A DNA stretch of 31,872 nucleotides from a virus. Taxonomy: Duplodnaviria; Heunggongvirae; Uroviricota; Caudoviricetes. Location of the stretch: the IMG/VR virus record IMGVR_UViG_3300045988_180666; one strand, given 5' to 3'. This document shows positions 13,462-31,872 of this stretch, piece by piece. Every line of letters begins with the position of its first letter. Positions within the stretch are counted from its first letter, which is position 1. Under the pieces are notes generated by a model. The model did not search any database, was not told the DNA's origin, and saw only the letters and a program-made list of their open reading frames with translations. The translations under genes and the position numbers were made by a program.

Positions 13462-13709
13462 CTTATAACCATTATAGACCGACCTTGATGTATAAATACA
13501 ATGGTGGCGGTCACATTCACCGTTGGTTATAAGATGGTAGCTTTCCCAGCGAAGGGCAAGTATCTTACGGATCATGCAACCGCCATATTGAAAAGACCTT
13601 TTTCCCGCTGCCGGGAAAATGATACTTTATAGGCATAAAAAAAGCCCACGGCGTGAAGCCTAGGCGAAACAGTCGCCATCGCTGAGTAGATTACTACTAT
13701 CTTATAACC
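13458..13709. repeat. three copies of ATCTTATAACC (two extend to the 14-mer CCATCTTATAACCA in inverted orientation)
   Basis: 13460-13470 (+), 13525-13535 (inverted) and 13699-13709 (+, at the predicted start site of the orphan promoter). Confidence 0.6.
13637..13665 (-). terminator. intrinsic terminator about 45-70 nt downstream of the orphan promoter
   Basis: Minus-strand GCCUAGGC-UUCAC-GCCGUGGGC (8 bp with one bulge) followed by U7. Confidence 0.6.
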
Positions 13710-13714
13710 GATGG

Positions 13715-13746
13715 CAAAAGTACGAAGAATAATTGGAACCGCCAAA
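13715..13746 (-). promoter_or_regulatory. full consensus promoter (-33 TTTG, 20-nt spacer, -7 TACTTTTG) with no ORF directly behind it
   Basis: Plus-strand CAAAAGTA at 13715-13722 and CAAA at 13743-13746. Confidence 0.55.
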
Positions 13747-13816
13747 AAAAAAGCGAGAAATTTTGAAATAAATGACTTTTTTATGTTTTAGAGCATAAAA
13801 CAAGGGGGTGAGGAAC

Positions 13817-13848
13817 GAAAAAGCCCCGGATGCTCACGCACCCGAGGC
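13817..13848 (-). terminator. intrinsic terminator of the AT-rich three-gene operon
   Basis: Minus-strand GCCUCGGG-UGCGUGAGCA-UCCGGGGC followed by UUUUUC, beginning 7 nt after the stop at 13855. Confidence 0.65.
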
Positions 13849-13854
13849 TGACAG

Positions 13855-14247
13855 TTATTTTTGGAAATAAACTTTTAAAGGGATTGAATTCTCCACATTG
13901 CCAATTTTGAAAGAGAACTGATAGTTGCCCTCTGCAGGGAACTGGAGGTCGGAGAACTCAAAGATGAAGTTGCTGAAGAGAAACTCATCTGAAGGGTGTG
14001 GCTCAATCTTGGAATTGATGGGCTGGCCAAGAATCATCTTGCCAGTGCTCATCTCTGTAACCTCTGCCGAGAACTCTTGCTGAAGTTTGCTTTCCTCGCT
14101 GTTCATCTTAACTCTCGCTACCATGAAGAGGTTGCTCTTAGGCAGCGGTGCTTTTCTTACCACATAGTGGTCAAAAGTGCCCACGATGGTAAGTTTGCCG
14201 TCATTATCTTGTGCAAAGTCACACAATGCAAGAATATCTATGTTCAT
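13855..14247 (-). CDS. hypothetical protein, third gene of AT-rich ORFan operon
   Basis: 130 aa (MNIDILALCDFAQDNDGKLTIVGTFDHYVV...), predicted all-beta by composition. ATG at 14247 overlaps the upstream stop by 4 nt. A terminator hairpin begins 7 nt after the stop. Confidence 0.65.
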   Translation of the reverse strand: MNIDILALCDFAQDNDGKLTIVGTFDHYVVRKAPLPKSNLFMVARVKMNSEESKLQQEFSAEVTEMSTGKMILGQPINSKIEPHPSDEFLFSNFIFEFSDLQFPAEGNYQFSFKIGNVENSIPLKVYFQK

Positions 14248-14684
14248 TTTATATGTCCTTTAATGTTAGACTCGATAGCCGAGTGTTTGAAAAGTTTTTT
14301 ATAATTGTCGAATGAATATTTGAGTTTGCTCACCGTGCGCTTGTTTGTGCTCACTAGGTTGGCTCCATGTCTGCCAGAGATGCCTTCCTTGGTATTGAAC
14401 TTCAGAGAATTTCTTTTGGAGTCAACCCAAAGCCTGATGGCATCGCCTTGTATCTTGTCACCCACATTGCCATGGACGTTGAGATCTTCTCGTATTTTCT
14501 TGTCCTCTTCGTTGAGCTCAAGAGCTTCGGTGATTTCTACGGAACTATTTCGGTCTAGTTCGTATAATGTCATCTTTTTGCCCGTGATAGGTTCCTCTTT
14601 GAGTCCCTTCCACTCAGCCCTTCTGGCAATGACATCAGCTTTTTTGCCCTCTATGATTTCACCTTCTTTGATATATATAGCCAT
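14244..14684 (-). CDS. hypothetical Lys-rich protein, second gene of AT-rich ORFan operon
   Basis: 146 aa. Its start overlaps the upstream stop in a TAATG arrangement (shared nt 14684). No motif recognised. Confidence 0.65.
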   Translation of the reverse strand: MAIYIKEGEIIEGKKADVIARRAEWKGLKEEPITGKKMTLYELDRNSSVEITEALELNEEDKKIREDLNVHGNVGDKIQGDAIRLWVDSKRNSLKFNTKEGISGRHGANLVSTNKRTVSKLKYSFDNYKKLFKHSAIESNIKGHIK

Positions 14685-15112
14685 TATTGGATACTTTTTT
14701 GCATTGATTTTTCACTGAAAGAGAATACCTCAGCCATATCATCAGGCGAGGTGATGCTCATGAGCGATGGGCTGACCTCAAGAGCCACCTCAATGTCTTC
14801 AATGGAAGCATCTTTATCTTGTTTGATGATGTACTTATCCTCATGCTCTTCAATCTCTTTATCAAACTCTTCTTCGGTAATATTGCCGTCAAGCATTTCG
14901 CAATATAGTTTGAAGTAGTTGCGCTCACGTGTGCGGTTGTTAACGGCACGAGTCATCAACTCCTTGAGTCTGTCGGCAGTACTGATGTTGAAAAAGTTAG
15001 CCTTATTGGTAACACCAGCGAATGCAACCTTGCCAGTACCTTTGTCTTGTATAGCCACAACAGGGCTGCCATCAGTTTGGTATGTTGTATATATAGTCGT
15101 TGTATTGCTCAT
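14684..15112 (-). CDS. hypothetical protein with acidic C-terminal half, first gene of AT-rich ORFan operon
   Basis: 142 aa with ATG at 15112, about 30 nt downstream of a full consensus promoter (15143-15174). Acidic stretch EEEFDKEIEEHEDKYIIKQDKDASIEDIEVALE. Confidence 0.65.
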   Translation of the reverse strand: MSNTTTIYTTYQTDGSPVVAIQDKGTGKVAFAGVTNKANFFNISTADRLKELMTRAVNNRTRERNYFKLYCEMLDGNITEEEFDKEIEEHEDKYIIKQDKDASIEDIEVALEVSPSLMSITSPDDMAEVFSFSEKSMQKSIQ

Positions 15113-15142
15113 AATTCACATCCTGTTTATATTAACACGGTG

Positions 15143-15174
15143 CAAAGATACGGATATTTTTTGTAAATCGCAAA
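15143..15174 (-). promoter_or_regulatory. full consensus promoter of the AT-rich three-gene operon
   Basis: Plus-strand CAAAGATA at 15143-15150 and CAAA at 15171-15174, an exact 20-nt spacer. The ATG at 15112 follows. Confidence 0.65.
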
Positions 15175-15299
15175 TTTAATGATAAATTTAACAACAAAAA
15201 TTGCAATAAAGATTGGAAAATGGTATATAAAAAATGCTCGACCGCTTTTTGGCTCTTGCCAGACGCTTTCGCCGCAGGCGAAAATTTTTGGAAAATGAG

Positions 15300-15321
15300 G
15301 GGGAAGGTTTTAGCCTTCCCC
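15300..15321. terminator. GC-rich hairpin after radC (possible bidirectional terminator)
   Basis: GGGGAAGG-ttttag-CCTTCCCC, 20 nt after the radC stop. U-rich tracts follow on both strands but are not immediately adjacent. Confidence 0.5.
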
Positions 15322-15340
15322 TTACCTTATTATATATATA

Positions 15341-16024
15341 TTATAGCTTTCCTTTGTCGTGGTAGCTGTAGAAGCCATCCTCAGCCAAGATGATATGGTC
15401 CATCAAGAAAAGTCTCATCACCTCGCACGCCTTGGCTATCTTCTGCGTGAGCATATCGTCCGCCTTGCTCGGCTGCGTGCTGTTCGATGGGTGGTTGTGT
15501 GCCACGGCGATGATGGTTGCATTGTTGAGCACGGCTTCTTTCATTATCAGTCGAACGTCCACCGCTGTCTCGGTGATGCCTCCCTCGCTGAGCTTGGTGC
15601 ACTTTATCAGCCTAAAGTTTTGGTTCATCAGCACTACCCAAAAGCCCTCTGTCTCATTGCAGCCTATCATTGGGCGAAGATAGTTGTAGAGTGCCAGGCT
15701 GCTGCCTAGGTCGGTGTTTCTCGCTACCTTTTCCATTTGGTAGCGTCTGCCTAGCTCGATGGCTGCCTGTAGGGCTATCGCCTTGCAGTCTCCAATTCCT
15801 GGTACCACTTCCAGGTCTTCTATTCTCGCCTTGCCGATGTTGCGAAGCGAGTTGCCCATGATGTTATAAATCTGTCGTGCCTGCTCTTGGCTGTCCTTGG
15901 TACCTGCCCCTCTGTTGATTACCAAAGAAATCAAGTCAACGTTGGTAAGGGTGTCGAAACCTTGGTTATAGGCTCTGTACTGCGGTCTCTCCTCCATACA
16001 AAGATTGTTATAATTTTGTCTCAT
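15341..16024 (-). CDS. radC: RadC-family JAB/MPN domain protein
   Basis: 227 aa. The N-terminal part is HhH-like (LEVVPGIGDCKAIALQAAIELGRR). The C-terminal JAMM motif is intact: E in ETEGFWVVLMN, then AHNHPSNSTQPSKADDMLT (HxHx7SxxD). Confidence 0.85.
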   Translation of the reverse strand: MRQNYNNLCMEERPQYRAYNQGFDTLTNVDLISLVINRGAGTKDSQEQARQIYNIMGNSLRNIGKARIEDLEVVPGIGDCKAIALQAAIELGRRYQMEKVARNTDLGSSLALYNYLRPMIGCNETEGFWVVLMNQNFRLIKCTKLSEGGITETAVDVRLIMKEAVLNNATIIAVAHNHPSNSTQPSKADDMLTQKIAKACEVMRLFLMDHIILAEDGFYSYHDKGKL

Positions 16025-16039
16025 ATCTTTTGTTATTTG

Positions 16040-16564
16040 TTAGTTATACATTCTCTTTGTTCTCGCTAGGAACATCGCTCCCATCACTTGTGCGCCACAT
16101 TCGGCTAGCTCGTTGGCGAACTCTCGGGCGGTCGCTCCGCTCGTCACCACGTCGTCGAAGATGATGACTTTCTTTCCGCTGAAGTACTCTCTATCGAGTG
16201 CCACTCTGTAGTCGAAGCTCTCACACACTCTGTCTGTGCTGAAGTGCTTGGCTGTGCGCTCTCCATAGATGGAAATGTGCTCGTTTCCGTTCTGTACCTT
16301 TGCGCCTTGGCTCACCTTTTGGGCGAAGCGAGAAAAGCGCTTGGTGTACTTCTTTGAGTTGGCTGCTGGAGCGCAAACCATCACGAAGTCGCTGGCTTTG
16401 TCGCCATAGGTGTTGACGAAAGAGCTGACCACCATATCGGCAGCTGCGTCTGTCGCCCACTGCTTTCCATCCTTGAAGGCAAAGATGAAGTTTCTCACTT
16501 GCTCTGCTTGTGCTGAGCGGTCGAAACGCTTGGAGCTGTACTCGTAATAATTGAAAGTTTTCAT
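16040..16564 (-). CDS. ComF-like phosphoribosyltransferase (PRTase) domain protein
   Basis: 174 aa. Canonical PRPP-binding loop KKVIIFDDVVTSGATAREFANELAECGA. The upstream segment VCAPAANSKKYTKRFSRFAQKVS resembles the ComF-type R.F.Q region. No N-terminal Cys4 zinc finger is present. Only 15 nt separate it from radC. Confidence 0.8.
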   Translation of the reverse strand: MKTFNYYEYSSKRFDRSAQAEQVRNFIFAFKDGKQWATDAAADMVVSSFVNTYGDKASDFVMVCAPAANSKKYTKRFSRFAQKVSQGAKVQNGNEHISIYGERTAKHFSTDRVCESFDYRVALDREYFSGKKVIIFDDVVTSGATAREFANELAECGAQVMGAMFLARTKRMYN

Positions 16565-16745
16565 ACGCTTAAAATTTTTATTCTAGCCAGAGGGAGGAAG
16601 GAGCTTTTTTATTTGAACTCGTCTTTGCCTGCCCGTCTGAGAGTTTTTTTTATTCTGTCCGTCGGTCGTTTTTGTCGCTTTTTACGGTGCGATGCAGACG
16701 AGCGGAGAAGAGGTATGAAAGCCAAGGAATTTTGCAAAAAGTTTA

Positions 16746-17462: not shown

Positions 17463-19064
17463 CTATAGCATGGAACCCGTGGCGATGTAGCCATCAGCCT
17501 GAGGGTATTTCTCCATGCCAATCATGAGCGTGTCGTAGGCATCGGAGCCATCGGTGCGAGCCTCCAACTTATCCTCCTCGGTCTCAGCCAGCTTCTCGCC
17601 TCGCTTATCCTTCTTGCCGTTGTAGACCCCGGCCAGGCGGATGGAGATGAGCAGGTCTTCGTTGTTCTCGCTGTTGATCATCGAGCGATGCTCAGCCTTG
17701 CCGAGGAACATGCGGTTGAGCAGAAGCATCTTTTCGAGATGTCCCATCGGGTTGCCCAGATAGACCTCGTTGACATACCAGCCATGGTCGGTGAGGTAGT
17801 CGGTGATGAAGGTATGGAAGTCATCGTTCATCAGGGCGTAGTTGTTGCCCACGAAGGTGGAGTCGTAGTAGAAGTTGACCTCTTTGCACCGATGGTACTC
17901 ATAGTACTGCATGAACTTGTCGAGCAGGGCTGGCAGCTTCTCCTCATACTTCACGAAGATGCTCTTGAGGCAGCGTGCCTCGCCCCGCAGGTTGTCTTGT
18001 CCGACGGCTATCCAGTTGATGAGGGCGTTGGCATCGAAGGCGATGCAGAGCGGACGGTCGGGGTCAACGTCGGCATCCATTCTGGAATCTACATGCTTGA
18101 GCTTGTCGATGTCGTAGCCCAAGCCATCGAGGTAGGCGAGGTTGGGCGCCGTGTATAGGTTGGCATCCCTGAGGTTGGAGTAGAAGCCATCGAGCGAGAT
18201 GGAAGGTCGCTTGCACATGATGGAGGTCTGGAAGGTGAGGGCAGGGAGGTCTCGCTTCATCTGCTTGATGAACTCCATGCCGAGCACCTCGATGTTATAG
18301 ACCGATGAGTACTCTTTATAGAAGAGTGCCTTGGAGCGCAGTTGCGCCAGGAGCTGACCAATCTCTCGGAGTCGGCGCTGGGCATAGCCTGAGACATGGC
18401 CCGAGGTCTTGATGCGGTTGCGTATGTCATACTCCTCTACCACGAGCGAGGCGATGGCGTCGATGAGCAGCTGGTCGCAGTCTTTCTTGTAGTTGAGGAA
18501 CCAGGAGCCCTTCTTGGTCACGGGCATATCAGAGGTGATGAGCATGCCATGGTGGTAGTAGTGCTGGCCGAAGAGGTTGACGTTGCCTCGATTGGCAGGG
18601 AAGGTCTCGTCTTTGAGCTGTTCGAAGTTGATGAACTTCGCCTCGTCGATGTCGAGGTAGTCGAGCGAGAGGGAGTTGGAGGTACCCTTGCGGTCTTGCG
18701 AGATGATGGTACCGATGGAGCCGTTATAGAAAGAGATGGTGTTCTCCCAGTTGCTGGGCGGTATGACCGGGTCGGGCCATCCCAGTTTTTTGGGAGGCTT
18801 GACCCCGATGAGATAATGCTTGCCCCGGTGGAAGCCCCATCGCTCCCAGTGCTGAAGCATCGACGGTATGGTGTTGGTGAGGCATCGCTTGGTGTTGGCG
18901 GATACGAAGCCGCCGTTGCTGCCAGGCATGCGCTGCATGTTGCGCAGGTTGAAGGTGGCGTGGAGAATGCTCTTGCCGATGCCTCGACCGCCCACGACCA
19001 CGTTGTCGCGGGCGGAGATGAGGTTGACCTCCATCTGGGCTGGGTTGAGATATTGATCTATCAT
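17463..19064 (-). CDS. terL: terminase large subunit
   Basis: 533 aa. Walker A is VVGGRGIGKS and Walker B-like is LSLDYLDIDEA, followed by a C-terminal nuclease-sized domain. The start overlaps the upstream gene in an ATGA arrangement. Confidence 0.85.
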   Translation of the reverse strand: MIDQYLNPAQMEVNLISARDNVVVGGRGIGKSILHATFNLRNMQRMPGSNGGFVSANTKRCLTNTIPSMLQHWERWGFHRGKHYLIGVKPPKKLGWPDPVIPPSNWENTISFYNGSIGTIISQDRKGTSNSLSLDYLDIDEAKFINFEQLKDETFPANRGNVNLFGQHYYHHGMLITSDMPVTKKGSWFLNYKKDCDQLLIDAIASLVVEEYDIRNRIKTSGHVSGYAQRRLREIGQLLAQLRSKALFYKEYSSVYNIEVLGMEFIKQMKRDLPALTFQTSIMCKRPSISLDGFYSNLRDANLYTAPNLAYLDGLGYDIDKLKHVDSRMDADVDPDRPLCIAFDANALINWIAVGQDNLRGEARCLKSIFVKYEEKLPALLDKFMQYYEYHRCKEVNFYYDSTFVGNNYALMNDDFHTFITDYLTDHGWYVNEVYLGNPMGHLEKMLLLNRMFLGKAEHRSMINSENNEDLLISIRLAGVYNGKKDKRGEKLAETEEDKLEARTDGSDAYDTLMIGMEKYPQADGYIATGSML

Positions 19065-19690
19065 AGTGCTTTGTCCTCCTTGACTTCTTCTGTAGGTGTA
19101 TATTCCAAGAGCTGTTCGTCGTAGTCCTCGGCCTCGATCTTGACGAGATCCATGGAGTTGTCGGTGTATTTCTTGACGAGCTTCTTGATGGTCTGCATCA
19201 CGTTAGGGATGCGCTTGAGACCCAAGTGTCGTGGGTCGGTGGTAGGGATGAAGACCTGAGGCTGAATCTGGTCGTAGCCGTTGTCGGTAGGATCCTCTTT
19301 GTCGAGCAGGTGATATTTGCCGTATGCAGCTGCGGCGGCAGCCATGGCTCGGGCATCGCCCATGGAGTCGGCCTTGTCGTAGGTGCGCTGTATCATCTGG
19401 TCGAAGCGATAGCGGGCGAAGTCTTTTGACACTTTTTGCAGGTTGCCCAATATGAGCTTGATGAGGTGCAGGTCGTTGTAAGCCATCATGCGCTGCACCT
19501 TGTAGTCGTGCATATCTTTATAGACCAGCTCTTGGTCGCTCTTGCGAGGGTTGATGAGCCACCAGGCATAGAGGGCACGGATGCGCAAAATGCGGTCGCG
19601 CACTGGGGCGGGCACATTTTGCGCATCCATCTCTTCGGGTGTGCGGTCCATCAGTTCGATGATGGCATCGATGTTGGCGGGTTCTCTCAT
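19061..19690 (-). CDS. possible terminase small subunit / packaging protein
   Basis: 209 aa, helical, translationally coupled (4-nt overlap) to terL on one side and to the HTH ORF on the other. The call rests on position only. Confidence 0.4.
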   Translation of the reverse strand: MREPANIDAIIELMDRTPEEMDAQNVPAPVRDRILRIRALYAWWLINPRKSDQELVYKDMHDYKVQRMMAYNDLHLIKLILGNLQKVSKDFARYRFDQMIQRTYDKADSMGDARAMAAAAAAYGKYHLLDKEDPTDNGYDQIQPQVFIPTTDPRHLGLKRIPNVMQTIKKLVKKYTDNSMDLVKIEAEDYDEQLLEYTPTEEVKEDKAL

Positions 19691-19968
19691 ATTCTAATCT
19701 CCTCTAACATTTGGTTCAGATATTCGTGTGTGCGCTGCACCGCCTGTGGCGAGCCAGCCGCAGCCAGGTCTAGCTTGTTTTTGCGTATCTGCTGGCGCAC
19801 CGTCGCCATGCCCAAGTAATAGACACGGTGAAGCTCGGAGTCGGGCTTCAGTATCTCGTCACGCAGATCGTCCTCGCTAATATCCAAAAGGACGGACATC
19901 TCGGATATCGGAGTCAACGTCTCCGCGAAGTCTTGCACTTTTTTGAGTAATTCCTGAGAAATTTCCAT
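19687..19968 (-). CDS. small HTH-like DNA-binding protein (TerS N-terminal-domain-like)
   Basis: 93 aa. The segment ISEMSVLLDISEDDLRDEILKPDSELHRVYYLGMATVRQQ resembles the HTH/recognition layout of small-terminase N-termini. ATG at 19968 lies 92 nt inside the upstream ORF. Confidence 0.4.
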   Translation of the reverse strand: MEISQELLKKVQDFAETLTPISEMSVLLDISEDDLRDEILKPDSELHRVYYLGMATVRQQIRKNKLDLAAAGSPQAVQRTHEYLNQMLEEIRI

Positions 19969-20452
19969 TGATTCTTAAGCTTTGAGTGTCACAATGAAGG
20001 GTATATCCGCCGAAGAGGTCGGCGAAGACCTGCGGGTCGGTGGTGATGATGGTTGACTCGTCACGGCTGCCGTAGGTCTGGTTTTGCGAGGTGACGACCG
20101 ACACGACGTGCTGGTCGTTGCGGAAGAGTGTCACCTTGGAGTGGTTTTGCCCCAGGAACACATCGTTGAAGCAGGTCTGCATCATGCGCCACAGCTGCAC
20201 GGTCTTTTTGCTCGCCTTGACATCGAGCAGCATCGTTGCCGACAGGATGCTGCCCGACTGGCGCATCAGGCGGAAGCCTCGCAGGAACTCCTCGGAGGTG
20301 GAGTAGGAAGACACCCACACATCTGCAGGGCCTATCTGGGAGAGAATCCACTTGATGAGACCGAGGGTGTGGAGGTGCCGCCCGAAGTAGGCTTGCGTCT
20401 GGGCATCGGCGATAGGACGGAGCAGGTCACTGACCTTGACCTTGGTCGGCAT
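19877..20452 (-). CDS. PLD/HKD-superfamily (Nuc-like) protein
   Basis: 191 aa. The single HKD-type motif GQNHSKVTLFRNDQHVVSVVTSQNQT fits the Nuc-like pattern (H.K...D......GS.N.T). The preceding VWVSSYSTSEEFLRGFRLMRQSG...LLDVK matches the first half of the fold. Confidence 0.55.
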   Translation of the reverse strand: MPTKVKVSDLLRPIADAQTQAYFGRHLHTLGLIKWILSQIGPADVWVSSYSTSEEFLRGFRLMRQSGSILSATMLLDVKASKKTVQLWRMMQTCFNDVFLGQNHSKVTLFRNDQHVVSVVTSQNQTYGSRDESTIITTDPQVFADLFGGYTLHCDTQSLRINGNFSGITQKSARLRGDVDSDIRDVRPFGY

Positions 20453-24612: not shown

Positions 24613-25197
24613 TTAATCTTTGCTAAATCTTGTTGTAGATGTTAAATTTACGCCTCTTTTTGCGTGTTGATCACGCATTCTGTAGAAACATTGGCGTACG
24701 GTATCCTCGTAATCGATGCCAATGCCATGCTGTTCGCACCATGCCGAAATGAGCGATGAAAGCTTGCATGAGCGGTCGGCGATGTCTTTGAGCGAAGCCC
24801 AGAGATCCATCTTGAAGAGGTCGGAAATCATCTCTTTGACGGCACGTCTGGCACGTGGCCCGAGGTAGTTGTACTCTCGCACAGGCTTAGCCTTGGAGTC
24901 AGGCAGCTCGATGGCAAGATACTCTTCGGGATGGGTGAGCCATCGGCTCTGCTCGAACTCCTCGTCGTGGAAGGTATGCTTGACACTTTGGTGCAGTTGG
25001 CTGGCATCAGCCTGCTGCATCTCTTGGATGTTCTCTTGGTCGATAGGCGATAGGTTGACAACGGGAGGTCTGCTGGTGAACTTGCGGAGCACAGCCACCT
25101 CGTTGCCGATGGCAGGGAAGACCACTGGGTTGCCATAAGCTCGGTAAGCCCATTGTCTGATGTGGGTAGGAACTTTGATGTAAACAATTGGATTCAT
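24613..25197 (-). CDS. hypothetical phage protein, first gene of the late/head operon
   Basis: The track start at 25209 is TTG. The ATG at 25197 (MNPIVYIKVPTHIRQW...) lies about 20 nt downstream of the -7 box at 25218-25225 and gives 194 aa. Confidence 0.55.
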   Translation of the reverse strand: MNPIVYIKVPTHIRQWAYRAYGNPVVFPAIGNEVAVLRKFTSRPPVVNLSPIDQENIQEMQQADASQLHQSVKHTFHDEEFEQSRWLTHPEEYLAIELPDSKAKPVREYNYLGPRARRAVKEMISDLFKMDLWASLKDIADRSCKLSSLISAWCEQHGIGIDYEDTVRQCFYRMRDQHAKRGVNLTSTTRFSKD

Positions 25198-25217
25198 ATA
25201 GCTATGCAATTTTCGTG

Positions 25218-25225
25218 CAAAGATA
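25218..25225 (-). promoter_or_regulatory. -7 box TATCTTTG, candidate late/head operon promoter
   Basis: GCAAAGATA lies 21 nt upstream of the ATG at 25197. Confidence 0.55.
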
Positions 25226-25311
25226 CAAAGAAAATTTGAAATAACTAACGATAATCGGTAAAAACTAACTTTTATCAGTAAATTTGGTGTGATATAATTT
25301 CGTCCGAAAAG

Positions 25312-25600
25312 TTTGTATTTTTGTATCGTACAAACAAGGCTCTGTAACTAGCTGATAATCAATACTATTTTTGTGATACAATTTTCTGATACAGAAATTG
25401 TAACTCTTTAGCTTTTGTAACTTGGGGTTTTGTCGAGGTCGAAGACCTGTAGGAGAAGGGGCTTGTTACAAACTTGAAAAACTTTGTAACAGAGTTGTAA
25501 CGCAACTTTGTAAACATCGGCAAGGCGGCTTAACTCCATCTTTTATAATTATTTACCTCTTTTGCCAACATTATGTTACAGAGTTACAAAGGATTTGTAT
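25312..25600. repeat. iteron-like array of (T)TTGTAAC / GTTACAA(A) motifs
   Basis: TGTAAC-core copies were read at about 25343, 25398, 25415, 25484 and 25495, with a variant at 25508. Inverted copies lie at about 25465, 25575 and 25583. A TTTGTA-tcg-TACAAA palindrome lies at 25320-25334. Confidence 0.6.
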
Positions 25601-25734
25601 AAAATAAAAGAAAGGGGTGTGGGGAAAACGATGGCACGGGGCGTGAAGGAGGATAGGGAAGGCCCATCGAGACACCCAGGACACCCCCATTGGCCAATGG
25701 AGGGGTAGCGAGACGAAACATCGCCCATGGCAAC

Positions 25735-25770
25735 GAAAAAAGGGAGCGACGGCCAATGCGCATCGCTCCC
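25735..25770 (-). terminator. intrinsic terminator downstream of the primase-helicase gene
   Basis: Minus-strand GGGAGCGA-13 nt loop-UCGCUCCC followed by U6. Confidence 0.65.
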
Positions 25771-25878
25771 TCGTAACATGGGAAAAGAATTATAAATCAG
25801 CAAAAATCTGCCTATGAAATCAGCCCTCGTCTGCTTGCAAAAATAGTGAAAAATTGCTTGAAAATTTAGCCGAAAATA

Positions 25879-25910
25879 TTTGCATAATTCAGATATTTTT
25901 TGTACCTTTG
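25879..25910 (+). promoter_or_regulatory. plus-strand consensus promoter (-33 TTTG, 20-nt spacer, -7 TACCTTTG) pointing antisense into the primase 3' end
   Basis: TTTG at 25879-25882 and TACCTTTG at 25903-25910. Confidence 0.45.
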
Positions 25911-25951
25911 CACTATAACTTGGGGCTATCTATTCTATTATATATGGATGG

Positions 25952-28906
25952 CTAGAAAGGTTTATCACTATCTTTATCTACCTTGCTCCAGTCAATGGTA
26001 GATTGATATTCACCCCCAGCTGCAGGGACATCAGCCTTGGCAGCTTGTTTATCCTCTTTTTTATCATCACTCTTCTTGCTTCGGAGATAGATCATCTCGA
26101 CAGGGCTGCCGTCTGGGTTAGCTGGATCGCGTCTGATGATGCGGTGCTGGCTGTTGCAGAGATCAGCTGGGTTCAGCTCTTGGATGTATGGACACAGCTC
26201 GACGAAGGCTCTGAGCTTTTTGGTGAAGCTCTGTGTGGTCGCCTTGTTGATGCCTGAGAACTGCTTGAAGTCATTGAACGCACGCTCTCTCACGATAAAT
26301 GTATCGAGTCGCTCGCTCTCTTCTGAGAAGTAGGATGCAGCCCAGTCTTCGAAGTTGACACCCATGTCGGCCTTGAACTTGCGCTTGATGATGTTATCCA
26401 TCGGTGGCATGATCTTGATAGGTTCGCCAGCCAAGGAGAGATAGAAACGACAGCACTGCAGGAAAAAGTTGATGTCAGCATTCCACTCATCCTCAGTGTA
26501 TGTCTTTGAGAAGAGATCTTCGTCGAAGTCATCACGGATGCTTCGGGTCTCTTGGTAATCATTCTCCTCTGTGCGCTGATGGTAATAGTCGGAGAACACC
26601 ATATAGAGCAGTCTCGCCTCTGAGGAAGGGTCGAAGTCTGCCGGCACGTAGTTGGTGGTGAAGGCAATCTTCGGGCTATCCTCGAAAGGAATTGTGAAGC
26701 TCTGGTTGTTCTTTGGGTTGACTGTCATATCTGAAGTAATGTTATCGTAAAATAAACCTGTGTTGAGATAGCGGTCACAGTCATCGAGGAGCAGCATCTG
26801 GGTGTGCTGTGTCACCTGATCGAAGACGTGTGGGTTGTCCATCAGCTTAGGGTTGCGTCCGGAAAGCTTGACTGTTTTCATCAGCAGTGAAAGCGTCTTG
26901 AAGAAGAAACTCTTACCGGAACGGCCGTTGCACTCGTTGTTTTCACCAATCTTGTTGTCCATCGCCATCGGAGCCCAAGCCCTGGATGGTGCCTTGTAAT
27001 GATGGAGCATGTAGCCGAAGGTGAAAATCTTGTTTATCAAGTTCTGCTTTTGCTCTTGTATCTCGTTGTCGGCAAGCCCTTCGCCAGCGATGTCGAAGAG
27101 GTGTGCCTTGTGGTATGCCTCTTTCTCCTCGATGCTCTTGTCCTCAAAAGCATACTCTAGCTCTTTGCGCCAGTAGGTGCGAGAGGCGTTGATGAGATAG
27201 CCGAAGAAGTGGGACTTCACGTTCTTGACCTCGATGTCGAACTTCGGCCTGCCATCCTCGTCGATGGTTCGGGTGATGGAGAACATGTCATCCAACTTCT
27301 TGAAGTTGTGGTTGATGACATTCTCTTGCCAAACATAGTTTTTGAGCGAGCTGCCCTCACGCTGGTACTCGTTTAGTCCATCTTTGGTGACCTCGACGCT
27401 GACACGAGGGAAGAAGAACAACTGCGAGTGGTTGGTGTAGCTGGTGAAGTCTAGCGTAATCTCTTGGAGCGAGTCGAGCGCCGATGCCGACAGCTTTGGC
27501 GTGTTGAGCACCAAGTTAAGGATGTCACGCTTCTCAGCTCTCTCGATGACCCATTGGCGGCAGAACTCACGGATGTCTCTCGTGGTGATGAGCTTGACGA
27601 TGTTGCCCGTGATGCGAACATATTTGGTGATGGTCGAGTTGTCATCGTGCAAGGTATAGAAACCATTGAGACGAAGAAAATTGTAGAGGCACGCCGTGTC
27701 GATGTAGTGGTCCCAGGTGTTAGCCTTTTTGTTGAGCTTGCTCACCCAAAATCGGGCTGGCATCGCCAGTGTCATGAGGTTGCGGAAGTCTTTGCGAGTA
27801 TTGCGCAGCTCCATCCAGTCTCGCAGGTCTTTGCGCCCCTTGCCACGGTTGTCGTGGTAGGTGCGAAGCCAAGAAGGCAACCATATCGTATGGATGTCGA
27901 TGAAGCGCAGGGCAAGCTCTGTGCCCTTGGCGATGCCCGTCTCGTCGATGTCGGGTATATTGTAGAGCACCTCGACATACTTCATAATCTCTCGGTACTC
28001 CTCGTCGCTGAGCTTGTAGGTCTCGGAGTTGAACCATAACGGGTTGTAGCCCATGGAACGGCAGCAGAGACTGTCACGCTCGCCACTGCAGATGAAAGCC
28101 TCGGGAAGTTTCTTCTCCTTGTAAGGCTTGGACTCGTCTGTGTTGGTCTTGTTGTACTCAGCCTCTTCACGGCGGTTGAACTCGTGATAGGCAGCCTTCA
28201 GCTCAGCTAGGCCATTGATGTATTGCTTAGGCTTGATGCCGTCTGGGGTGTAAGAGAATCGCCACTGCTTTTGGTAGTTGAGAGGCTCATATATCTTGTA
28301 GAACTTAACCTCAGGCTTGTCGCCTTCAGCTGGGCGAACCAAGCACTCACGCATAAAGATAGGGTAGTGCTCGTTGCTGTGCTTAATCTTGACCTTGCGG
28401 TCTTTGACGTATCCTATCCACTTGGCGGAATGCCAGTTGAGCGCATCGACGTGCTCTTGCTTGACGTTTGGACCCAGTACCTTCAGTTCATCTTCGGTGA
28501 ACTTCTCGTTCAGCTCGAAAGGTCTGGTACCATCTTTCTCGTTGATGGTGGCATCACGCTCTGTGAACGTAGGCTTGTTGACCTCTTTTTTGAGTTCATC
28601 GCTAACGTTGTATTCGGAAGCCAGTCGCAGGATAGCATCAGGAAAGCGGTCGATGCACTTCTCTCTCATGTAGAGGTCGATAGGTGACTCGGCAGATCCG
28701 TCGCCGCCGAAGTCTGTCACTCGCCAGCAGTCTTTGAACTTTTTGAGACTGCAGGAAGGTGTTTTCTCATTGCGGATGGCAAAGTGCTTTTTAGGCGTGC
28801 CAGTCGTGCAATATTTCTGGATGCATTCTTTTGCGTCCGGGTATAGTGAGATGATGATGTCGAGACCATCATCTGTAGCTTGATAAATTTGTTCTGCTTT
28901 GATCAT
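25952..28906 (-). CDS. DNA primase (Toprim) fused to SF3 (P4/D5-like) helicase
   Basis: The track start at 28936 is TTG inside the promoter, so the ATG at 28906 (MIKAEQIYQATDDG...) is preferred. The Toprim-like segment is FICSGERDSLCC...LYNIPDIDETGIAKG. Walker A is ECNGRSGKSFFFK and Walker B is QMLLLDDCD. Confidence 0.8.
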   Translation of the reverse strand: MIKAEQIYQATDDGLDIIISLYPDAKECIQKYCTTGTPKKHFAIRNEKTPSCSLKKFKDCWRVTDFGGDGSAESPIDLYMREKCIDRFPDAILRLASEYNVSDELKKEVNKPTFTERDATINEKDGTRPFELNEKFTEDELKVLGPNVKQEHVDALNWHSAKWIGYVKDRKVKIKHSNEHYPIFMRECLVRPAEGDKPEVKFYKIYEPLNYQKQWRFSYTPDGIKPKQYINGLAELKAAYHEFNRREEAEYNKTNTDESKPYKEKKLPEAFICSGERDSLCCRSMGYNPLWFNSETYKLSDEEYREIMKYVEVLYNIPDIDETGIAKGTELALRFIDIHTIWLPSWLRTYHDNRGKGRKDLRDWMELRNTRKDFRNLMTLAMPARFWVSKLNKKANTWDHYIDTACLYNFLRLNGFYTLHDDNSTITKYVRITGNIVKLITTRDIREFCRQWVIERAEKRDILNLVLNTPKLSASALDSLQEITLDFTSYTNHSQLFFFPRVSVEVTKDGLNEYQREGSSLKNYVWQENVINHNFKKLDDMFSITRTIDEDGRPKFDIEVKNVKSHFFGYLINASRTYWRKELEYAFEDKSIEEKEAYHKAHLFDIAGEGLADNEIQEQKQNLINKIFTFGYMLHHYKAPSRAWAPMAMDNKIGENNECNGRSGKSFFFKTLSLLMKTVKLSGRNPKLMDNPHVFDQVTQHTQMLLLDDCDRYLNTGLFYDNITSDMTVNPKNNQSFTIPFEDSPKIAFTTNYVPADFDPSSEARLLYMVFSDYYHQRTEENDYQETRSIRDDFDEDLFSKTYTEDEWNADINFFLQCCRFYLSLAGEPIKIMPPMDNIIKRKFKADMGVNFEDWAASYFSEESERLDTFIVRERAFNDFKQFSGINKATTQSFTKKLRAFVELCPYIQELNPADLCNSQHRIIRRDPANPDGSPVEMIYLRSKKSDDKKEDKQAAKADVPAAGGEYQSTIDWSKVDKDSDKPF

Positions 28907-28933
28907 AATTCTTTTCCATTGTAAATTTGCTTG

Positions 28934-28964
28934 CAAAATTATTGCAAAGCGAGTTCAAAACAAA
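28934..28964 (-). promoter_or_regulatory. promoter of the primase-helicase gene (-33 TTTG, 19-nt spacer, -7 TAATTTTG)
   Basis: Plus-strand CAAAATTA at 28934-28941 and CAAA at 28961-28964. The ATG at 28906 is downstream. Confidence 0.6.
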
Positions 28965-29902: not shown

Positions 29903-30280
29903 ATGTTTAATGGTCAGATAATCAGAAAGTTAATGTCGGATGCTGGCTTAACTAAAAAAGAGTTTGAAAGACGTATGTTCGGTAGTAAATCGACCGACCT
30001 CAACCATTTGGAAAAAGCGAAGAATCTTCGCAGTGACACTCTCGAACGTCTGCGTGATGTGTTGAAGTGCTCTATGGATGACTTCTTTACAGCACCCTCA
30101 TGGGCTGAGAACGGAAAGGGGACAGTCGTAGGCTCTAACAATGTGCTGTCAACAGTAGCCATCGGCAACGAAGTGATGGAAGCCCAATATCTCAAGGAGT
30201 TGCTCTTGGAGAAGGACAAACGCATCAGCACTTTGGAAAATTATATCAAGCTTCTGGAGACTAACTTAAATAAGGACTAA
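29903..30280 (+). CDS. XRE-family HTH regulator, putative prophage repressor
   Basis: 125 aa, the only phage gene on the plus strand and divergent from the early operon. The N-terminal HTH is IIRKLMSDAGLTKKEFERRMFGSKSTDLNHLEKAKNLRSDTLERLRDVLKCSMDDFF. The C-terminal part is a coiled coil (QYLKELLLEKDKRISTLENYIKLLE). Confidence 0.75.
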   Translation: MFNGQIIRKLMSDAGLTKKEFERRMFGSKSTDLNHLEKAKNLRSDTLERLRDVLKCSMDDFFTAPSWAENGKGTVVGSNNVLSTVAIGNEVMEAQYLKELLLEKDKRISTLENYIKLLETNLNKD

Positions 30281-30510
30281 TACGAAACATAATTCGTAAG
30301 ATGAATCCTTATATATAATAAGGTGTATAAAATATATCGTATAATCTCAGCAGTGATATCCAACTCGTTAGTCCTGCCGCCGCAACTAGTTTCGGGTAAG
30401 AAGTTGGTAAACAACATCTTATCCGATTTCTGTTTTTCTATTGGAACTATATCAGAACGAAATACTTTCCATTCCACATTCCTTTGATATTCAATATTTA
30501 ACACTTATTA

Positions 30511-30542
30511 TTTGCGTATATTGAATAAAAGTGCTACTTTTG
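30511..30542 (+). promoter_or_regulatory. host TetR gene promoter (-33 TTTG, 20-nt spacer, -7 TACTTTTG)
   Basis: TTTG at 30511-30514 and TACTTTTG at 30535-30542. The ATG at 30592 follows. Confidence 0.55.
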
Positions 30543-30565
30543 CACATTGATAATTTATTGTGCAA
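30540..30565. promoter_or_regulatory. 7-bp perfect inverted repeat TTGCACA-N12-TGTGCAA overlapping the TetR -7 box / start site (likely autoregulatory operator)
   Basis: Read directly: arms at 30540-30546 and 30559-30565. Confidence 0.5.
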
Positions 30566-30591
30566 CCAAATCTCGATGGAGGTACTTCGTT

Positions 30592-31188
30592 ATGTCAATA
30601 TCAAAAACTAGACAGAAATTAGTGGATGTCGCTCGACAACTCTTTGCAAAGAACGGAATCGCCAATACAACGATGAATGACATCGCTGTGGCTTCTGGTA
30701 AGGGACGTCGCACGCTTTATACCTATTTTAGTCGTAAGGAGGACGTCTATTACGCAGTGATAGAGTCGGAATTGGAGCGCCTTTCTGACAAACTTGACGA
30801 AGTGGCCGCCAGTAAGATTCGACCTCAAGACAAAATCATCGAATTGATTTATACCCACTTGAGCATGATCAAGGAGACTGTTGTCAGAAATGGAAATCTG
30901 AGAGCTGAGTTCTTCCGCAATATTTGGATGGTGGAAAAGGCTCGCAAGAATTTCGATGAAGACGAGATAGAACTTCTCAGGAAGGTTTATTCCGAGGGCA
31001 AGGCGGACGGCGAGTTTGACATCGATAATGTAGATTTGGTGGCTGACATCACACACTATTGCATCAAAGGTCTCGAAGTTCCGTTTATCTATGGGCGATT
31101 GGGACATGGCTTGAACGTGGAGTCGAGCAAACCGCTGGTTGCCAAGGTTGTCTATGGTGCTTTAGGAAAGTCGGGAATGAAGTTGTAA
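30592..31188 (+). CDS. TetR/AcrR-family transcriptional regulator (host)
   Basis: The track start at 30547 is TTG; the ATG at 30592 gives MSISKTRQKLVDVARQLFAKNGIANTTMNDIAVASGKGRRTLYTYF, the canonical TetR N-terminal HTH. A consensus promoter and a palindrome lie just upstream. Confidence 0.85.
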   Translation: MSISKTRQKLVDVARQLFAKNGIANTTMNDIAVASGKGRRTLYTYFSRKEDVYYAVIESELERLSDKLDEVAASKIRPQDKIIELIYTHLSMIKETVVRNGNLRAEFFRNIWMVEKARKNFDEDEIELLRKVYSEGKADGEFDIDNVDLVADITHYCIKGLEVPFIYGRLGHGLNVESSKPLVAKVVYGALGKSGMKL

Positions 31189-31330
31189 GAGATTGCTTGC
31201 TAGAATAGCGAAATGCTCTTTTTCTGTTATTCAAAGTATATTGAATGATGGACTAAACTTTCTTGCAAATTCTCAGCAAATCACAAATTGAATAATATAA
31301 AGTGTTAAATATCAAATAAATAAAAAGAAA

Positions 31331-31872
31331 ATGGGATTATTAACAGGTAAGACAGCCCTTATTACAGGTGCTGCACGCGGCATCGGTAAAGCTGTCGCAA
31401 TGAAATTCGCATCAGAAGGTGCTAACATCGCATTCACAGACCTAGTTCTCAATGACGACATGGCTGCTGGTTTGGAAGCTACTCGTAAGGAAATCGAGGC
31501 TCTTGGCGTAACATGCCGTGCTTATGCTGGTAACGCTGCTGATTTCGCGGAGACAGACAAGACTGTTAAGCAGATTCATGCTGACTTCGGTTCTATCGAT
31601 ATTTTGGTTAACAACGCTGGTATCACTAAGGATGGTTTGATGCTCCGTATGAGCGAGGCTCAGTGGGATGCTGTGTTGAACGTTAACTTGAAGTCTGCTT
31701 TCAACTTCATCCACGCTTGTTCTCCTATCATGCTCCGTCAGCGCAGCGGTTCTATCATCAACATGGCTTCTGTAGTAGGTGTTCATGGTAACGCAGGTCA
31801 GTGCAACTATGCAGCTTCTAAGGCTGGTATGATTGCTTTGGCTAAGTCTATCGCTCAGGAGTTGGGTCCTAA
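31331..31872 (+). CDS. fabG: 3-oxoacyl-[acyl-carrier-protein] reductase FabG, partial (runs off right edge)
   Basis: Hand translation from the ATG at 31331: MGLLTGKTALITGAARGIGKAVAMKFASEGANIAF...ILVNNAGITKDGLMLRMSEAQWDAVLNVNLKSAF...NYAASKAGMIALAKSIAQELGP. This shows the SDR TGxxxGIG, NNAG and YxxxK motifs in the FabG pattern. Confidence 0.9.
   Translation, partial: MGLLTGKTALITGAARGIGKAVAMKFASEGANIAFTDLVLNDDMAAGLEATRKEIEALGVTCRAYAGNAADFAETDKTVKQIHADFGSIDILVNNAGITKDGLMLRMSEAQWDAVLNVNLKSAFNFIHACSPIMLRQRSGSIINMASVVGVHGNAGQCNYAASKAGMIALAKSIAQELGP

What the first reader, a model, noticed from the sequence alone, without database searches (positions are those of the whole stretch)
25312..25600. 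Iteron-like TTGTAAC array between the primase gene and the late operon: candidate origin or operator bank
At least nine copies of a TGTAAC-core motif occur in both orientations within about 280 bp. These include the near-helically phased triplet ACTTTGTAAC-AGAGTTGTAAC-GCAACTTTGTAAAC (starts about 25484, 25495 and 25508). A mirrored GTTACAGAGTTACAAAG lies at 25575-25591, and a TTTGTA-tcg-TACAAA palindrome at 25320-25334. The array is just downstream of the replication gene's terminator and upstream of the late-operon promoter (25218-25). That location fits either a phage origin with initiator iterons or binding sites for a late-gene regulator.
Basis: partly seen in the sequence, partly recalled or inferred. 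Interest (0 to 1): 0.55.

Follow-up and report, generated by a model that had tools for sequence, protein, structure and literature searches.

The report
Phage replication origin with short iterons
The TGTAAC repeat cluster is real, and it is most likely the replication origin of a Segatella (Prevotella) copri prophage, read by the primase-helicase encoded just upstream; this kind of origin is already known from staphylococcal SaPI elements but has not been described for these common gut phages.

Summary
Eight exact TGTAAC copies plus one TGTAAAC variant lie in 25343-25588, against about 0.34 expected (0/5000 local shuffles). It is the densest word cluster in the window.

About 45 distinct related Segatella phage sequences keep 6-11 copies with fixed spacer lengths. 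Other lineages carry the same kind of array with a different word: TGTAGAA, TGTAGCA, TGTGGCA, GTGTGTAA, TTTGTGAT, TTTGTGAC, TCTGTAT or TTCAACT.

The word follows the upstream primase-helicase gene, not the downstream 194-aa gene:
- Loci with a 94% identical 194-aa protein but a 57% identical primase use different words.
- A locus with a 33% identical 194-aa protein and a 66% identical primase keeps TTTGTAAC and the same RIIRR strand in the predicted C-terminal winged helix.
- Some primase homologues carry an array with no 194-aa gene.

Verdict: a probable SaPI/P4-like origin (confidence about 0.7). The late-regulator and packaging-site readings are disfavoured. It is a new member of a known kind and of moderate interest. 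It could serve as a replicon source for Segatella genetics.

The parts
25952..28906 (-). Primase-helicase gene, 984 aa from the ATG (the ORF listing starts at TTG 28936). This is the proposed initiator. It has an N-terminal degenerate DnaG-type Zn-ribbon, an SF3 helicase core (Walker A NGRSGKS) and a C-terminal domain with winged-helix element order (residues about 838-943).
25736..25771 (-). Intrinsic terminator of the early/replication operon: hairpin GGGAGCGA...TCGCTCCC followed by a T6 run.
   Evidence: Sequence. It is the dominant hairpin in the RNA fold. It is conserved in relatives, and substitutions in the upper stem keep pairing. Equivalent hairpins precede the arrays in other lineages.
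25592..25629 (-). Conserved C-rich then T-rich leader of the array (GTTTTCCCCACACCCCTTTCTTTTATTTTATACAAATC on the - strand).
   Evidence: Nearly invariant in 40 distinct lineage-A sequences. Similar C-rich/T-rich leaders occur in L158, L161, L221, L233 and L283.
25575..25591 (-). Iteron pair CTTTGTAAC + CTCTGTAAC, 8-bp period, both on the - strand.
   Evidence: The hexamers are identical in 100% of 35 more distant lineage-A sequences.
25516..25574 (.). AT-rich spacer (64% AT overall; core 25536-25566 is 71% AT) between iterons that point in opposite directions. Candidate DNA-unwinding region.
   Evidence: The sequence varies but the length is fixed at 59-60 bp and AT content stays at 60-70% in 40 relatives. 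25529-25558 is among the least stable 30-mers of the intergenic region.
25482..25515 (+). Iteron triplet CTTTGTAAC, GTTGTAAC and CTTTGTAAAC, spaced 11 and 13 bp, in the opposite orientation to the pair at 25575-25591.
   Evidence: Column identity is 0.96-1.00 in relatives.
25464..25475 (-). Iteron GTTTGTAAC on the - strand. With 25480-25491 it forms a 28-bp inverted repeat (12-nt arms, 4-nt gap).
   Evidence: Inverted repeat I20. The hexamer is identical in 100% of relatives.
25397..25421 (+). Two iterons: ATTGTAAC (25397-25404) and TTTTGTAAC (25413-25421).
   Evidence: These sites turn over: 23% and 77% of relatives keep them, and relatives gain other copies.
25375..25394 (-). Two TGTATC variant repeats (- strand), 14 bp apart.
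   Evidence: Conserved as TGTATC...TGTATC in lineage A.
25353..25361 (.). Perfect palindrome TGATTATCA inside a 76% AT stretch (25349-25398). Shared by arrays that use different iteron words and both primase types. Possibly a host-factor site.
   Evidence: The only exact copy in the window. Present in the arrays of L068, L063/L149, L122 and L161. 25355-25384 is the least stable 30-mer of the intergenic region. The flanking segment has a fixed length of 50-52 bp.
25340..25348 (+). Iteron CTCTGTAAC.
   Evidence: Column identity 0.90.
25284..25334 (-). Highly conserved promoter-proximal block. It holds TTTGTAtcgTACAAA (25320-25334) and CTTTTCGGACGAAATTATATCA (25290-25311, - strand, with the small dyad TTTCG-ga-CGAAA). 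Its role is unknown, but it belongs to the replication-module side.
   Evidence: The exact 22-mer is found in 40 lineage-A loci and in L158, whose iteron word and late module both differ. A variant is present in L283.
25218..25225 (-). -7 box TATCTTTG of the late-operon promoter. It marks the right-hand limit of the late module and is not part of the origin.
   Evidence: TAnnTTTG is enriched 37 versus 12 in the window, and TATCTTTG precedes several late genes. In L150 versus L157 the high-identity late-module block begins 78 nt before the ATG, between the array and the promoter.

Best explanation
The array is the vegetative replication origin of a temperate Segatella copri phage, built like the origins of SaPI/PICI satellites.

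Proposed mechanism:
- The primase-helicase encoded just upstream (25952-28906, - strand) recognises the 8-9-bp iterons (consensus yTTTGTAAC) through its C-terminal winged-helix domain.
- It assembles on iteron groups that face each other across fixed-length AT-rich spacers (25516-25574 and around 25349-25398).
- It melts the spacer, loads itself as an SF3 hexameric helicase and primes synthesis.

Shown here: the repeat cluster is non-random and conserved; the word co-varies with the primase-helicase gene and with one strand of its predicted wing; the fold of the helicase half.

Inferred: direct binding, melting, and that replication starts here.
For: 1. Non-random and selected. Eight copies against 0.34 expected. 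In 35 diverged relatives, motif columns are 0.91 identical and other columns 0.68. Individual sites are lost and gained while the word is kept. Spacer lengths are fixed at 59-60, 36 and 50-52 bp although spacer sequence drifts.

2. Same architecture, different word in other lineages. The order is terminator, then 8-17 short repeats in blocks of opposite orientation around AT-rich segments, then the late promoter. The words are TGTAGAA, TGTAGCA, TGTGGCA, GTGTGTAA, TTTGTGAT, TTTGTTAC, TTTGTGAC, TCTGTAT, ATGTAGT and TTCAACT.

3. The word follows the primase-helicase.
- All 1678 locus pairs with at least 75% identical primases share the word. Fourteen pairs with at least 75% identical 194-aa proteins do not.
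- L150 versus L157: 194-aa protein 94% identical and most of the late module 70-94%, but primase 57% and TGTGGC versus TGTAGC. Nucleotide identity of 88% starts only 78 nt before the late ATG.
- L221-223 versus L185/L191: 194-aa protein 77-79% identical, primase type switched, array different.
- L283 versus the window: 194-aa protein 33% identical, primase 66%, same TTTGTAAC x10.
- L292/293/296/303: primase homologue followed by an array (8 nt after its stop codon in L293, the one inspected), with no 194-aa homologue.
- Within lineage A the small early genes diverge or are missing (L121 lacks all four), while primase (88-100% identical) and array persist.

4. Residue-level covariation in the predicted wing strand: RIIRR(D/E) with TGTAAC (window, L283); RILRR with TGTTAC; RIQ(H/K/S) with TGTGA(T/C); RISRR with TTCAACT; RN(I/V) with TGTAT.

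6. Published precedent. SaPI origins are 6-12 penta- or hexanucleotide iterons immediately downstream of rep. They are split by an AT-rich region, with at least two iterons on each side pointing in opposite directions, and are read by a winged helix in the Rep C-terminal domain (PMC9371898). The pRN1 origin lies just downstream of its primase-helicase gene and terminator (PMC4234260).

7. No DnaA boxes in the region, as expected for a self-loading initiator.
Against: - No binding or replication data exist; everything is comparative.
- The decisive swaps are few independent events (about four), and whole early modules are exchanged, so an unrecognised early protein could be the binder.
- The array always abuts the late promoter. 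In lineage D (L068) three genes separate it from the primase gene, which would also suit a promoter-linked role.
- The two primase types share only a 60-aa N-terminal region, yet most words share a TGT(A/G) core. That hints at a common factor other than the divergent C-terminal domains.
- Iteron spacing is irregular (8-66 bp), and AT-richness of the spacer is moderate (64-76%).
- GC skew shows no inflection here, though that is uninformative for a co-directionally transcribed phage.
Confidence: 0.7

Rival explanations
1. Upstream regulatory bank of the late promoter. An early-module protein, possibly the primase-helicase itself or an unidentified activator or repressor, binds the repeats to switch on or silence the late operon that starts at 25197.
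For: The array sits directly upstream of the late -7 box in every lineage. It stays there in L068, where a methylase and two other genes separate it from the primase gene. Its co-travel with the early module is equally compatible with an early-encoded regulator.
Against: - The nearest exact repeat is about 125 bp upstream of the -7 box, and the array extends to -400. That is far more sites, and further away, than known late activators use (from general knowledge).
- Other TATCTTTG late promoters in the window have no TGTAAC nearby.
- The small early proteins vary or are absent while the array is constant.
- In L293 the array follows the primase stop codon directly and precedes an unrelated gene.
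Confidence: 0.12
2. Operators for the product of 24613..25197, the first gene of the late operon, acting as an autoregulator or late-gene regulator.
Against: - The word does not follow this protein: 94% identical proteins go with different words (L150/L157), and 33% identical proteins go with the same word (L283/window).
- Arrays exist without the gene.
- The mosaic junction falls between the array and this gene's promoter.
Confidence: 0.04
3. Packaging recognition site (pac/cosB-like) bound by the small terminase at the head of the structural module.
For: Its position at the start of the morphogenetic operon resembles lambda cosB and SPP1 pac (from memory). A few metagenomic contigs end inside the array.
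Against: - Late-module proteins, including the putative small-terminase ORF just upstream of TerL, are 82-94% identical between L150 and L157 although the word changes completely.
- The putative TerS/TerL/HNH genes lie about 5-7 kb away, at 17463-20452.
- By my own rough estimate, about 12 of about 190 contigs end within 1.2 kb upstream, which is close to what random breaks would give.
Confidence: 0.03
4. Partition (centromere-like) or copy-control/incompatibility site of a plasmid-like prophage, bound by a ParR/omega-type protein.
For: Short repeats in both orientations with 8-11-bp periods resemble omega heptad arrays and parC (from memory).
Against: - The Pfam/PHROG scans I ran on 29 ORFs returned no ParA/ParB-type family; I did not scan every ORF of the window.
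- A CI-like repressor module and a Segatella chromosomal contig context suggest an integrated prophage.
- The word co-varies with an SF3 helicase rather than with a small DNA-binding protein.
Confidence: 0.04

Closest known systems
SaPI/PICI replication origins with Rep or fused PriRep self-loading helicases (Staphylococcus aureus pathogenicity islands; PMC9371898)
   Same: - Short iterons (5-6 nt in SaPIs, a 6-nt core within 8-9 nt here), 6-12 copies.
- The iterons lie downstream of the primase/helicase ORF.
- An AT-rich segment is flanked by iterons pointing in opposite directions.
- The iteron word is element-specific and matched to its own helicase.
- There are no DnaA boxes.
   Different: - No detectable sequence homology to SaPI Rep/Pri (no Pfam or PDB sequence hit).
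- The element is a complete temperate phage of Bacteroidota, not a satellite of Firmicutes.
- The array begins 364 bp after the stop codon, behind a promoter-like insert, a terminator and a hypervariable stretch.
- It has additional repeat groups, a conserved TGATTATCA palindrome and a conserved 22-bp block.
- Binding has not been tested.
Bacteriophage P4 alpha protein with ori and crr
   Same: One polypeptide combines primase, SF3-type helicase and a C-terminal origin-binding domain. The iterons are octamers (TGTTCACC in P4) present in both orientations.
   Different: P4 needs a second distant cis site (crr). No second TGTAAC cluster exists in the window or in the 12-20 kb of related loci held. 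There is no sequence similarity. P4 ori is not placed at an early/late junction.
pRN1 ORF904 primase-helicase and its origin (PMC4234260)
   Same: The origin lies in the non-coding region immediately downstream of the primase-helicase gene and its terminator. [quoted passage not shown]
   Different: The pRN1 origin is a 100-nt stem-loop without iterons, and specific binding could not be shown. It is an archaeal plasmid.
Iteron plasmids (RepA, pi, TrfA) and the lambda O/ori system (from general knowledge)
   Same: Repeated initiator sites lie next to an AT-rich region.
   Different: Those iterons are 17-22 bp, mostly direct repeats. They are often accompanied by DnaA boxes, and lambda ori lies inside the O gene. 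Their initiators are not helicases and need DnaB loading. None of these features is seen here.

Membership tests
SaPI/PICI-type origin (self-loading Rep/PriRep + iterons) | 6-12 short (penta/hexanucleotide) iterons | tested here: met
   Eight exact TGTAAC plus one TGTAAAC. Relatives carry 6-11, and other lineages carry 8-17 copies of their own word.
SaPI/PICI-type origin (self-loading Rep/PriRep + iterons) | Iterons located immediately downstream of the rep (helicase) ORF | tested here: inconclusive
   The array is in the same intergenic region but 364 bp after the stop codon in the window. It starts 8 nt after the stop in L293. It is separated by three inserted genes in L068.
SaPI/PICI-type origin (self-loading Rep/PriRep + iterons) | Central AT-rich region with at least two iterons on each side pointing in opposite directions | tested here: met
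   Two - strand iterons (25575-25591), a 59-bp spacer with 64-71% AT and conserved length, then three + strand iterons (25482-25515). Arrays in L068, L122, L149 and L293 have the same layout.
SaPI/PICI-type origin (self-loading Rep/PriRep + iterons) | Initiator is an SF3 helicase, fused or adjacent to a primase | tested here: met
   [not shown]
SaPI/PICI-type origin (self-loading Rep/PriRep + iterons) | C-terminal winged-helix domain that reads the iterons | tested here: inconclusive
   The secondary-structure order H-b-H-H-b-b at residues about 838-943 fits a winged helix. The wing strand co-varies with the word. No separate fold search of the domain was done, and there are no binding data.
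SaPI/PICI-type origin (self-loading Rep/PriRep + iterons) | Element-specific matching of helicase and iteron sequence | tested here: met
   The word class is identical in all 1678 pairs with at least 75% primase identity. It changes when the primase is swapped and is kept when only the late module changes.
SaPI/PICI-type origin (self-loading Rep/PriRep + iterons) | Sequence homology to SaPI Rep/Pri proteins | tested here: not met
   No Pfam, NCBIfam or PDB sequence match for the 994-aa protein or its family profile. The similarity is structural only.
SaPI/PICI-type origin (self-loading Rep/PriRep + iterons) | Replication initiates at the array, and the array is required in cis | not testable with these tools
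   This needs plasmid replication assays or marker-frequency analysis.
P4 alpha ori/crr system | A second cis-acting iteron cluster (crr) at a distance | tested here: not met
   The other six TGTAAC in the window are scattered singles. No second cluster is present within 6-10 kb on either side in relatives. The feature itself is recalled from memory.
Classical iteron-plasmid / lambda-type origins | 17-22-bp direct iterons, DnaA boxes, origin within or upstream of the initiator gene | tested here: not met
   The repeats are 8-9 bp in both orientations. There is no DnaA box with at most one mismatch in 25210-25951. The array is downstream of the gene.
Operator bank of the adjacent late gene product (24613..25197) | Site sequence co-varies with the binding protein | tested here: not met
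   L150/L157: 94% identical protein, different word. L283/window: 33% identical protein, same word. Arrays exist without the gene.
pac/cos terminase recognition site | Site co-varies with the small terminase or late module and lies at the genome end | tested here: not met
   The late module is 82-94% identical while the word changes. Genome ends were not testable.

The most novel reading that the evidence does not exclude
The origin may also act as the early-to-late switch. In every lineage the array is anchored directly upstream of the late promoter, even where other genes separate it from the primase gene. Helicase loading or fork passage at the array could therefore license transcription of the late operon. 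This would be replication-coupled late transcription, as in T4, but achieved by placing ori next to the late promoter. The shared TGATTATCA palindrome and the 22-bp conserved block would be the coupling elements.
Probability: 0.12. Interest if true: 0.7.

Novelty: new member of a known kind. Interest (0 to 1): 0.4.

Why it matters
Segatella (Prevotella) copri is one of the most abundant human gut bacteria, yet (to my knowledge) few replicons or genetic tools exist for it. A defined origin plus its cognate self-loading primase-helicase (about 3.7 kb, 25200-28950) is a candidate minimal replicon.

The related lineages offer roughly a dozen natural initiator/iteron pairs with different words, and these could prove to be orthogonal. 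They also form a ready-made data set for working out how a winged-helix wing strand reads a 3-4-nt specificity segment (RIIRR/TGTAAC, RIQxS/TGTGAT and so on).

For phage genomics, the result gives a simple rule for locating origins in a widespread group of Bacteroidota prophages. It also shows that the replication module, origin included, is exchanged as a unit, with a junction about 80 bp upstream of the late operon.

Tried and rejected
- **Known RNA or tRNA:** none. Rfam at gathering threshold on the whole window and at E<=1 on 25150-26300 gave nothing, and ARAGORN found no gene. The GC-rich stretch 25630-25735 folds stably (z -3.8) but is hypervariable with indels in relatives. I therefore dropped the idea of a structured RNA.
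- **Small ORFs in the gap** (25571-25803): low-complexity, unconserved translations by eye. Rejected.
- **Known phage records:** none by DNA or protein.
- **Domain-level divergence profiles of the primases:** these did not single out one specificity domain. Only the residue-level view of the wing did.
- **Immunity operators:** there is no TGTAAC at the CI/Cro region.
- **attP arm sites:** considered because contigs end in the array. The number of such ends is close to chance, the central spacers are not conserved as a core would be, and no integrase gene is adjacent.
- **Sigma-70 promoter scan:** uninformative for Bacteroidota, so I used the TAnnTTTG motif instead.
- **Literature:** searches found nothing on these phages.
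- **First pooled covariation count:** spoiled by a 7-mer threshold and redone with 6-mers.

Full report
**Setting.** All genes around the finding are on the - strand. Read in the direction of transcription, the order is as follows:
- a CI-like HTH gene (29903-30280, + strand), divergent from four small early ORFs;
- a 994-aa ORF (25952-28936; ATG at 28906);
- a 742-bp gap (25210-25951);
- a 194-aa ORF (24613-25197) and a 139-aa ORF;
- a ClpP-like head protease and further structural genes, down to a weak terminase-large-subunit match (17463-19064) and a 1159-aa ORF I take to be the tape measure (not scanned).

Close relatives lie on Segatella copri and S. maculosa contigs. The Bacteroidota -7 promoter motif TAnnTTTG is enriched 37 versus 12 in the window. 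The element is therefore a temperate Segatella/Prevotella phage. No deposited phage record resembles it.

**The observation.**
- TGTAAC occurs 14 times in the window, and 8 of these lie in 25343-25588: five on the + strand and three on the - strand. The ninth copy is TGTAAAC at 25509.
- Local dinucleotide-preserving shuffles give a mean of 0.34 copies, and none of 5000 reaches 8.
- I also allowed for the word having been chosen after the fact. The commonest 6-mer occurs 9 times against a shuffle maximum of 6 (0/2000). This is the densest word cluster anywhere in the window.
- The array lies between a hairpin plus T-run (25736-25771) and the late -7 box TATCTTTG (25218-25225).

**Conservation.** I retrieved 64 viral-contig loci with the 194-aa protein as query, and more with family alignments.
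- Loci at 73-100% protein identity keep 6-11 TGTAAC copies between -400 and -130 of the late ATG.
- In an alignment of 40 distinct upstream sequences, motif columns are 0.91 identical to the window and other columns 0.68. Four sites are invariant and a fifth nearly so. The others are lost in some relatives, which gain new TGTAAC copies elsewhere.
- Spacer sequences drift, but spacer lengths are fixed at 59-60, 36 and 50-52 bp, and the spacers stay AT-rich. That is what a nucleoprotein assembly with fixed geometry would impose.

**Other lineages use other words.** More distant homologues of the 194-aa gene have the same layout: terminator, then 8-17 short repeats in blocks of opposite orientation around AT-rich segments, then the late promoter. 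The repeated word differs between lineages: TGTAGAA, TGTAGCA, TGTGGCA, GTGTGTAA, TTTGTGAT, TTTGTTAC and ATGTAGT. In each lineage the word is confined to this one cluster within the 8-20 kb held. A specific protein must co-evolve with these sites.

**Which protein?** At first I suspected the adjacent 194-aa protein. It is the constant neighbour, whereas the upstream replication gene comes in two types:
- the window's type, about 950-1030 aa, with no Pfam hit;
- a DnaG-Zn-ribbon/Toprim/DUF927 type, 1064-1108 aa.

The two types share only about 60 N-terminal residues. Natural recombinants then argued the other way.
1. L150 versus L157. The 194-aa proteins are 94% identical and most other late-module proteins 70-94%. 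Nucleotide identity of 88% begins 78 nt before the late ATG. The primases are only 57% identical, and the word changes from TGTAGC to TGTGGC.
2. L221-223 versus L185/L191. The 194-aa proteins are 77-79% identical, but the primase type differs and the TGTAGAA array is replaced.
3. L283 versus the window. The 194-aa proteins are 33% identical and the primases 66%, yet the word is the same, TTTGTAAC x10.
4. L292/293/296/303. A primase homologue is followed by a TTCAACT array (8 nt after its stop codon in L293, the locus I inspected). No 194-aa homologue follows (tblastn found none in the four loci; hhalign probability 0.2% for the ORF that follows in L293).
5. Within the window's own lineage, the four small early proteins diverge to 48-72% identity or are missing (L121 lacks all four). 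The primase (88-100% identical) and the array persist.

Pooled over 110 distinct loci, all 1678 pairs with at least 75% identical primases share the word. Fourteen pairs with at least 75% identical 194-aa proteins do not. These pairs are not independent events; the independent events are roughly the four or five cases listed above.

**The protein.**
- The N-terminus aligns with the DnaG-type zinc ribbon (hhalign E 2.7e-5).
- An AF2 model of the C-terminal 385 residues has pLDDT 82.5. It shows a P-loop helicase core followed by helix-strand-helix-helix-strand-strand, which is the order of elements in a winged helix.
- Across type-1 primases the predicted wing strand tracks the word:
  - RIIRR(D/E) with TGTAAC, in both the window and L283, which are only 66% identical overall;
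  - RILRR with TGTTAC;
  - RIQ(H/K/S) with TGTGA(T/C);
  - RISRR with TTCAACT;
  - RN(I/V) with TGTAT.
- L158, L159 and L161 are as close to the window overall (68%) as L283 is. They have changed both the wing strand and the word.

**Comparison with known systems.** SaPI origins are described as follows (PMC9371898, read):
- 6-12 penta- or hexanucleotide iterons immediately downstream of rep;
- an AT-rich region near the middle;
- at least two iterons on each side pointing in opposite directions;
- recognition by a winged helix in the Rep C-terminal domain;
- pri and rep fused in SaPI5.

The window matches this layout. Two - strand iterons (25575-25591) face three + strand iterons (25482-25515) across a 59-bp spacer. 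Further groups lie around a second AT-rich segment that holds the palindrome TGATTATCA.

The pRN1 origin also lies just downstream of its primase-helicase gene and terminator (PMC4234260). P4 alpha with its octamer iterons is a further analogue, which I cite from memory. There are no DnaA boxes, which fits a self-loading initiator.

Membership in the SaPI Rep protein family fails on sequence, with no Pfam or PDB sequence hit. The claim is therefore that the array works like a SaPI origin, not that it belongs to that family.

**Rivals.**
- A late-promoter regulatory bank bound by an early-encoded factor remains possible (confidence about 0.12). The array always abuts the late promoter, even in L068, where a methylase and two other genes separate it from the primase gene.
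- Operators for the 194-aa product, a terminase recognition site and a partition site are each disfavoured by the covariation data and the gene content.

**Caveats.**
- Nothing here demonstrates binding or initiation.
- The swaps exchange whole early modules.
- The shared TGT(A/G) core across unrelated C-terminal domains is unexplained.
- The winged-helix call is based on topology only.

**Verdict.** The finding is real. This is a new member of a known kind of origin, in a phage group and host where none had been defined.

Noticed in passing
window 25822-25928 (core: TTTG 25879-25882, TACCTTTG 25903-25910, + strand): A near-perfect Bacteroidota promoter (TTTG-N20-TAnnTTTG) sits between the primase stop codon and its terminator. 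It points back into the 3' end of the primase gene, in the antisense direction. The block is almost invariant in lineage A, more so than the adjoining coding sequence. It is cleanly deleted in L003 and absent from other type-1 lineages. It may drive an antisense RNA controlling the replication gene, or it may be a small inserted element. It also forms a 54-nt imperfect inverted repeat with the late promoter region (I1).
   Followed up: partly
window 25630-25735: A hypervariable stretch, C-rich on the gene strand, lies between the terminator and the array. Its length ranges from 66 to 106 bp, and relatives show large indels and little sequence identity. It is flanked on both sides by strongly conserved sequence. 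It folds stably as RNA (z -3.8), but the lack of conservation argues against a structured RNA. No explanation.
   Followed up: partly
window 25353-25361; also L068, L122, L149, L161 arrays: The palindrome TGATTATCA (often cTGATTATCAg) recurs inside the arrays of lineages that use different iteron words and unrelated primase types. In L068 and L122 it overlaps a perfect match to the enterobacterial IHF consensus WATCAANNNNTTR. It may be the site of a host architectural protein. There is only one exact copy in the window.
   Followed up: partly
window 25290-25311 (- strand CTTTTCGGACGAAATTATATCA): A 22-bp block with a small dyad (TTTCG-ga-CGAAA) is identical in 40 lineage-A loci and in L158, whose iteron word and late module both differ. 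A variant is present in L283. Function unknown. It lies between the last repeats and the late promoter.
   Followed up: partly
[not shown]
   Followed up: partly
L210, -640 to -100 upstream of the late gene: This lineage (word ATGTAGT) carries a direct duplication of about 220 bp within part of its array, giving two copies of the same repeat group. This is reminiscent of the duplicated crr region of P4 (from memory).
   Followed up: no
window 7119, 12482, 15143, 24077, 25218 (- strand): The identical -7 box TATCTTTG precedes five genes of the late region, at 7102, 12458, 15112, 24053 and 25197. The late region therefore looks like several transcription units rather than one operon.
   Followed up: no
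window 13000-16600: A low-GC island (0.42-0.46, against 0.50-0.58 for most of the flanking sequence) lies inside the structural region. It contains a RadC-like JAB-domain gene (15341-16024, Pfam E 1e-35) and several small ORFs, and is probably a moron cluster.
   Followed up: no
window 30282-31872: The 100% identical IMG/VR contig starts right after the CI-like gene (about window 30282). The TetR-family gene (30547-31188) and the 114-aa ORF beyond it may therefore be host DNA, or lie outside the called prophage boundary.
   Followed up: no
L068 7207-9473: In the S. maculosa prophage, a C5 cytosine methylase, a 153-aa ORF and a lipoprotein-like 103-aa ORF are inserted between the primase gene and the array. 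This is the only lineage seen where the array is not in the intergenic region right after the primase gene.
   Followed up: partly
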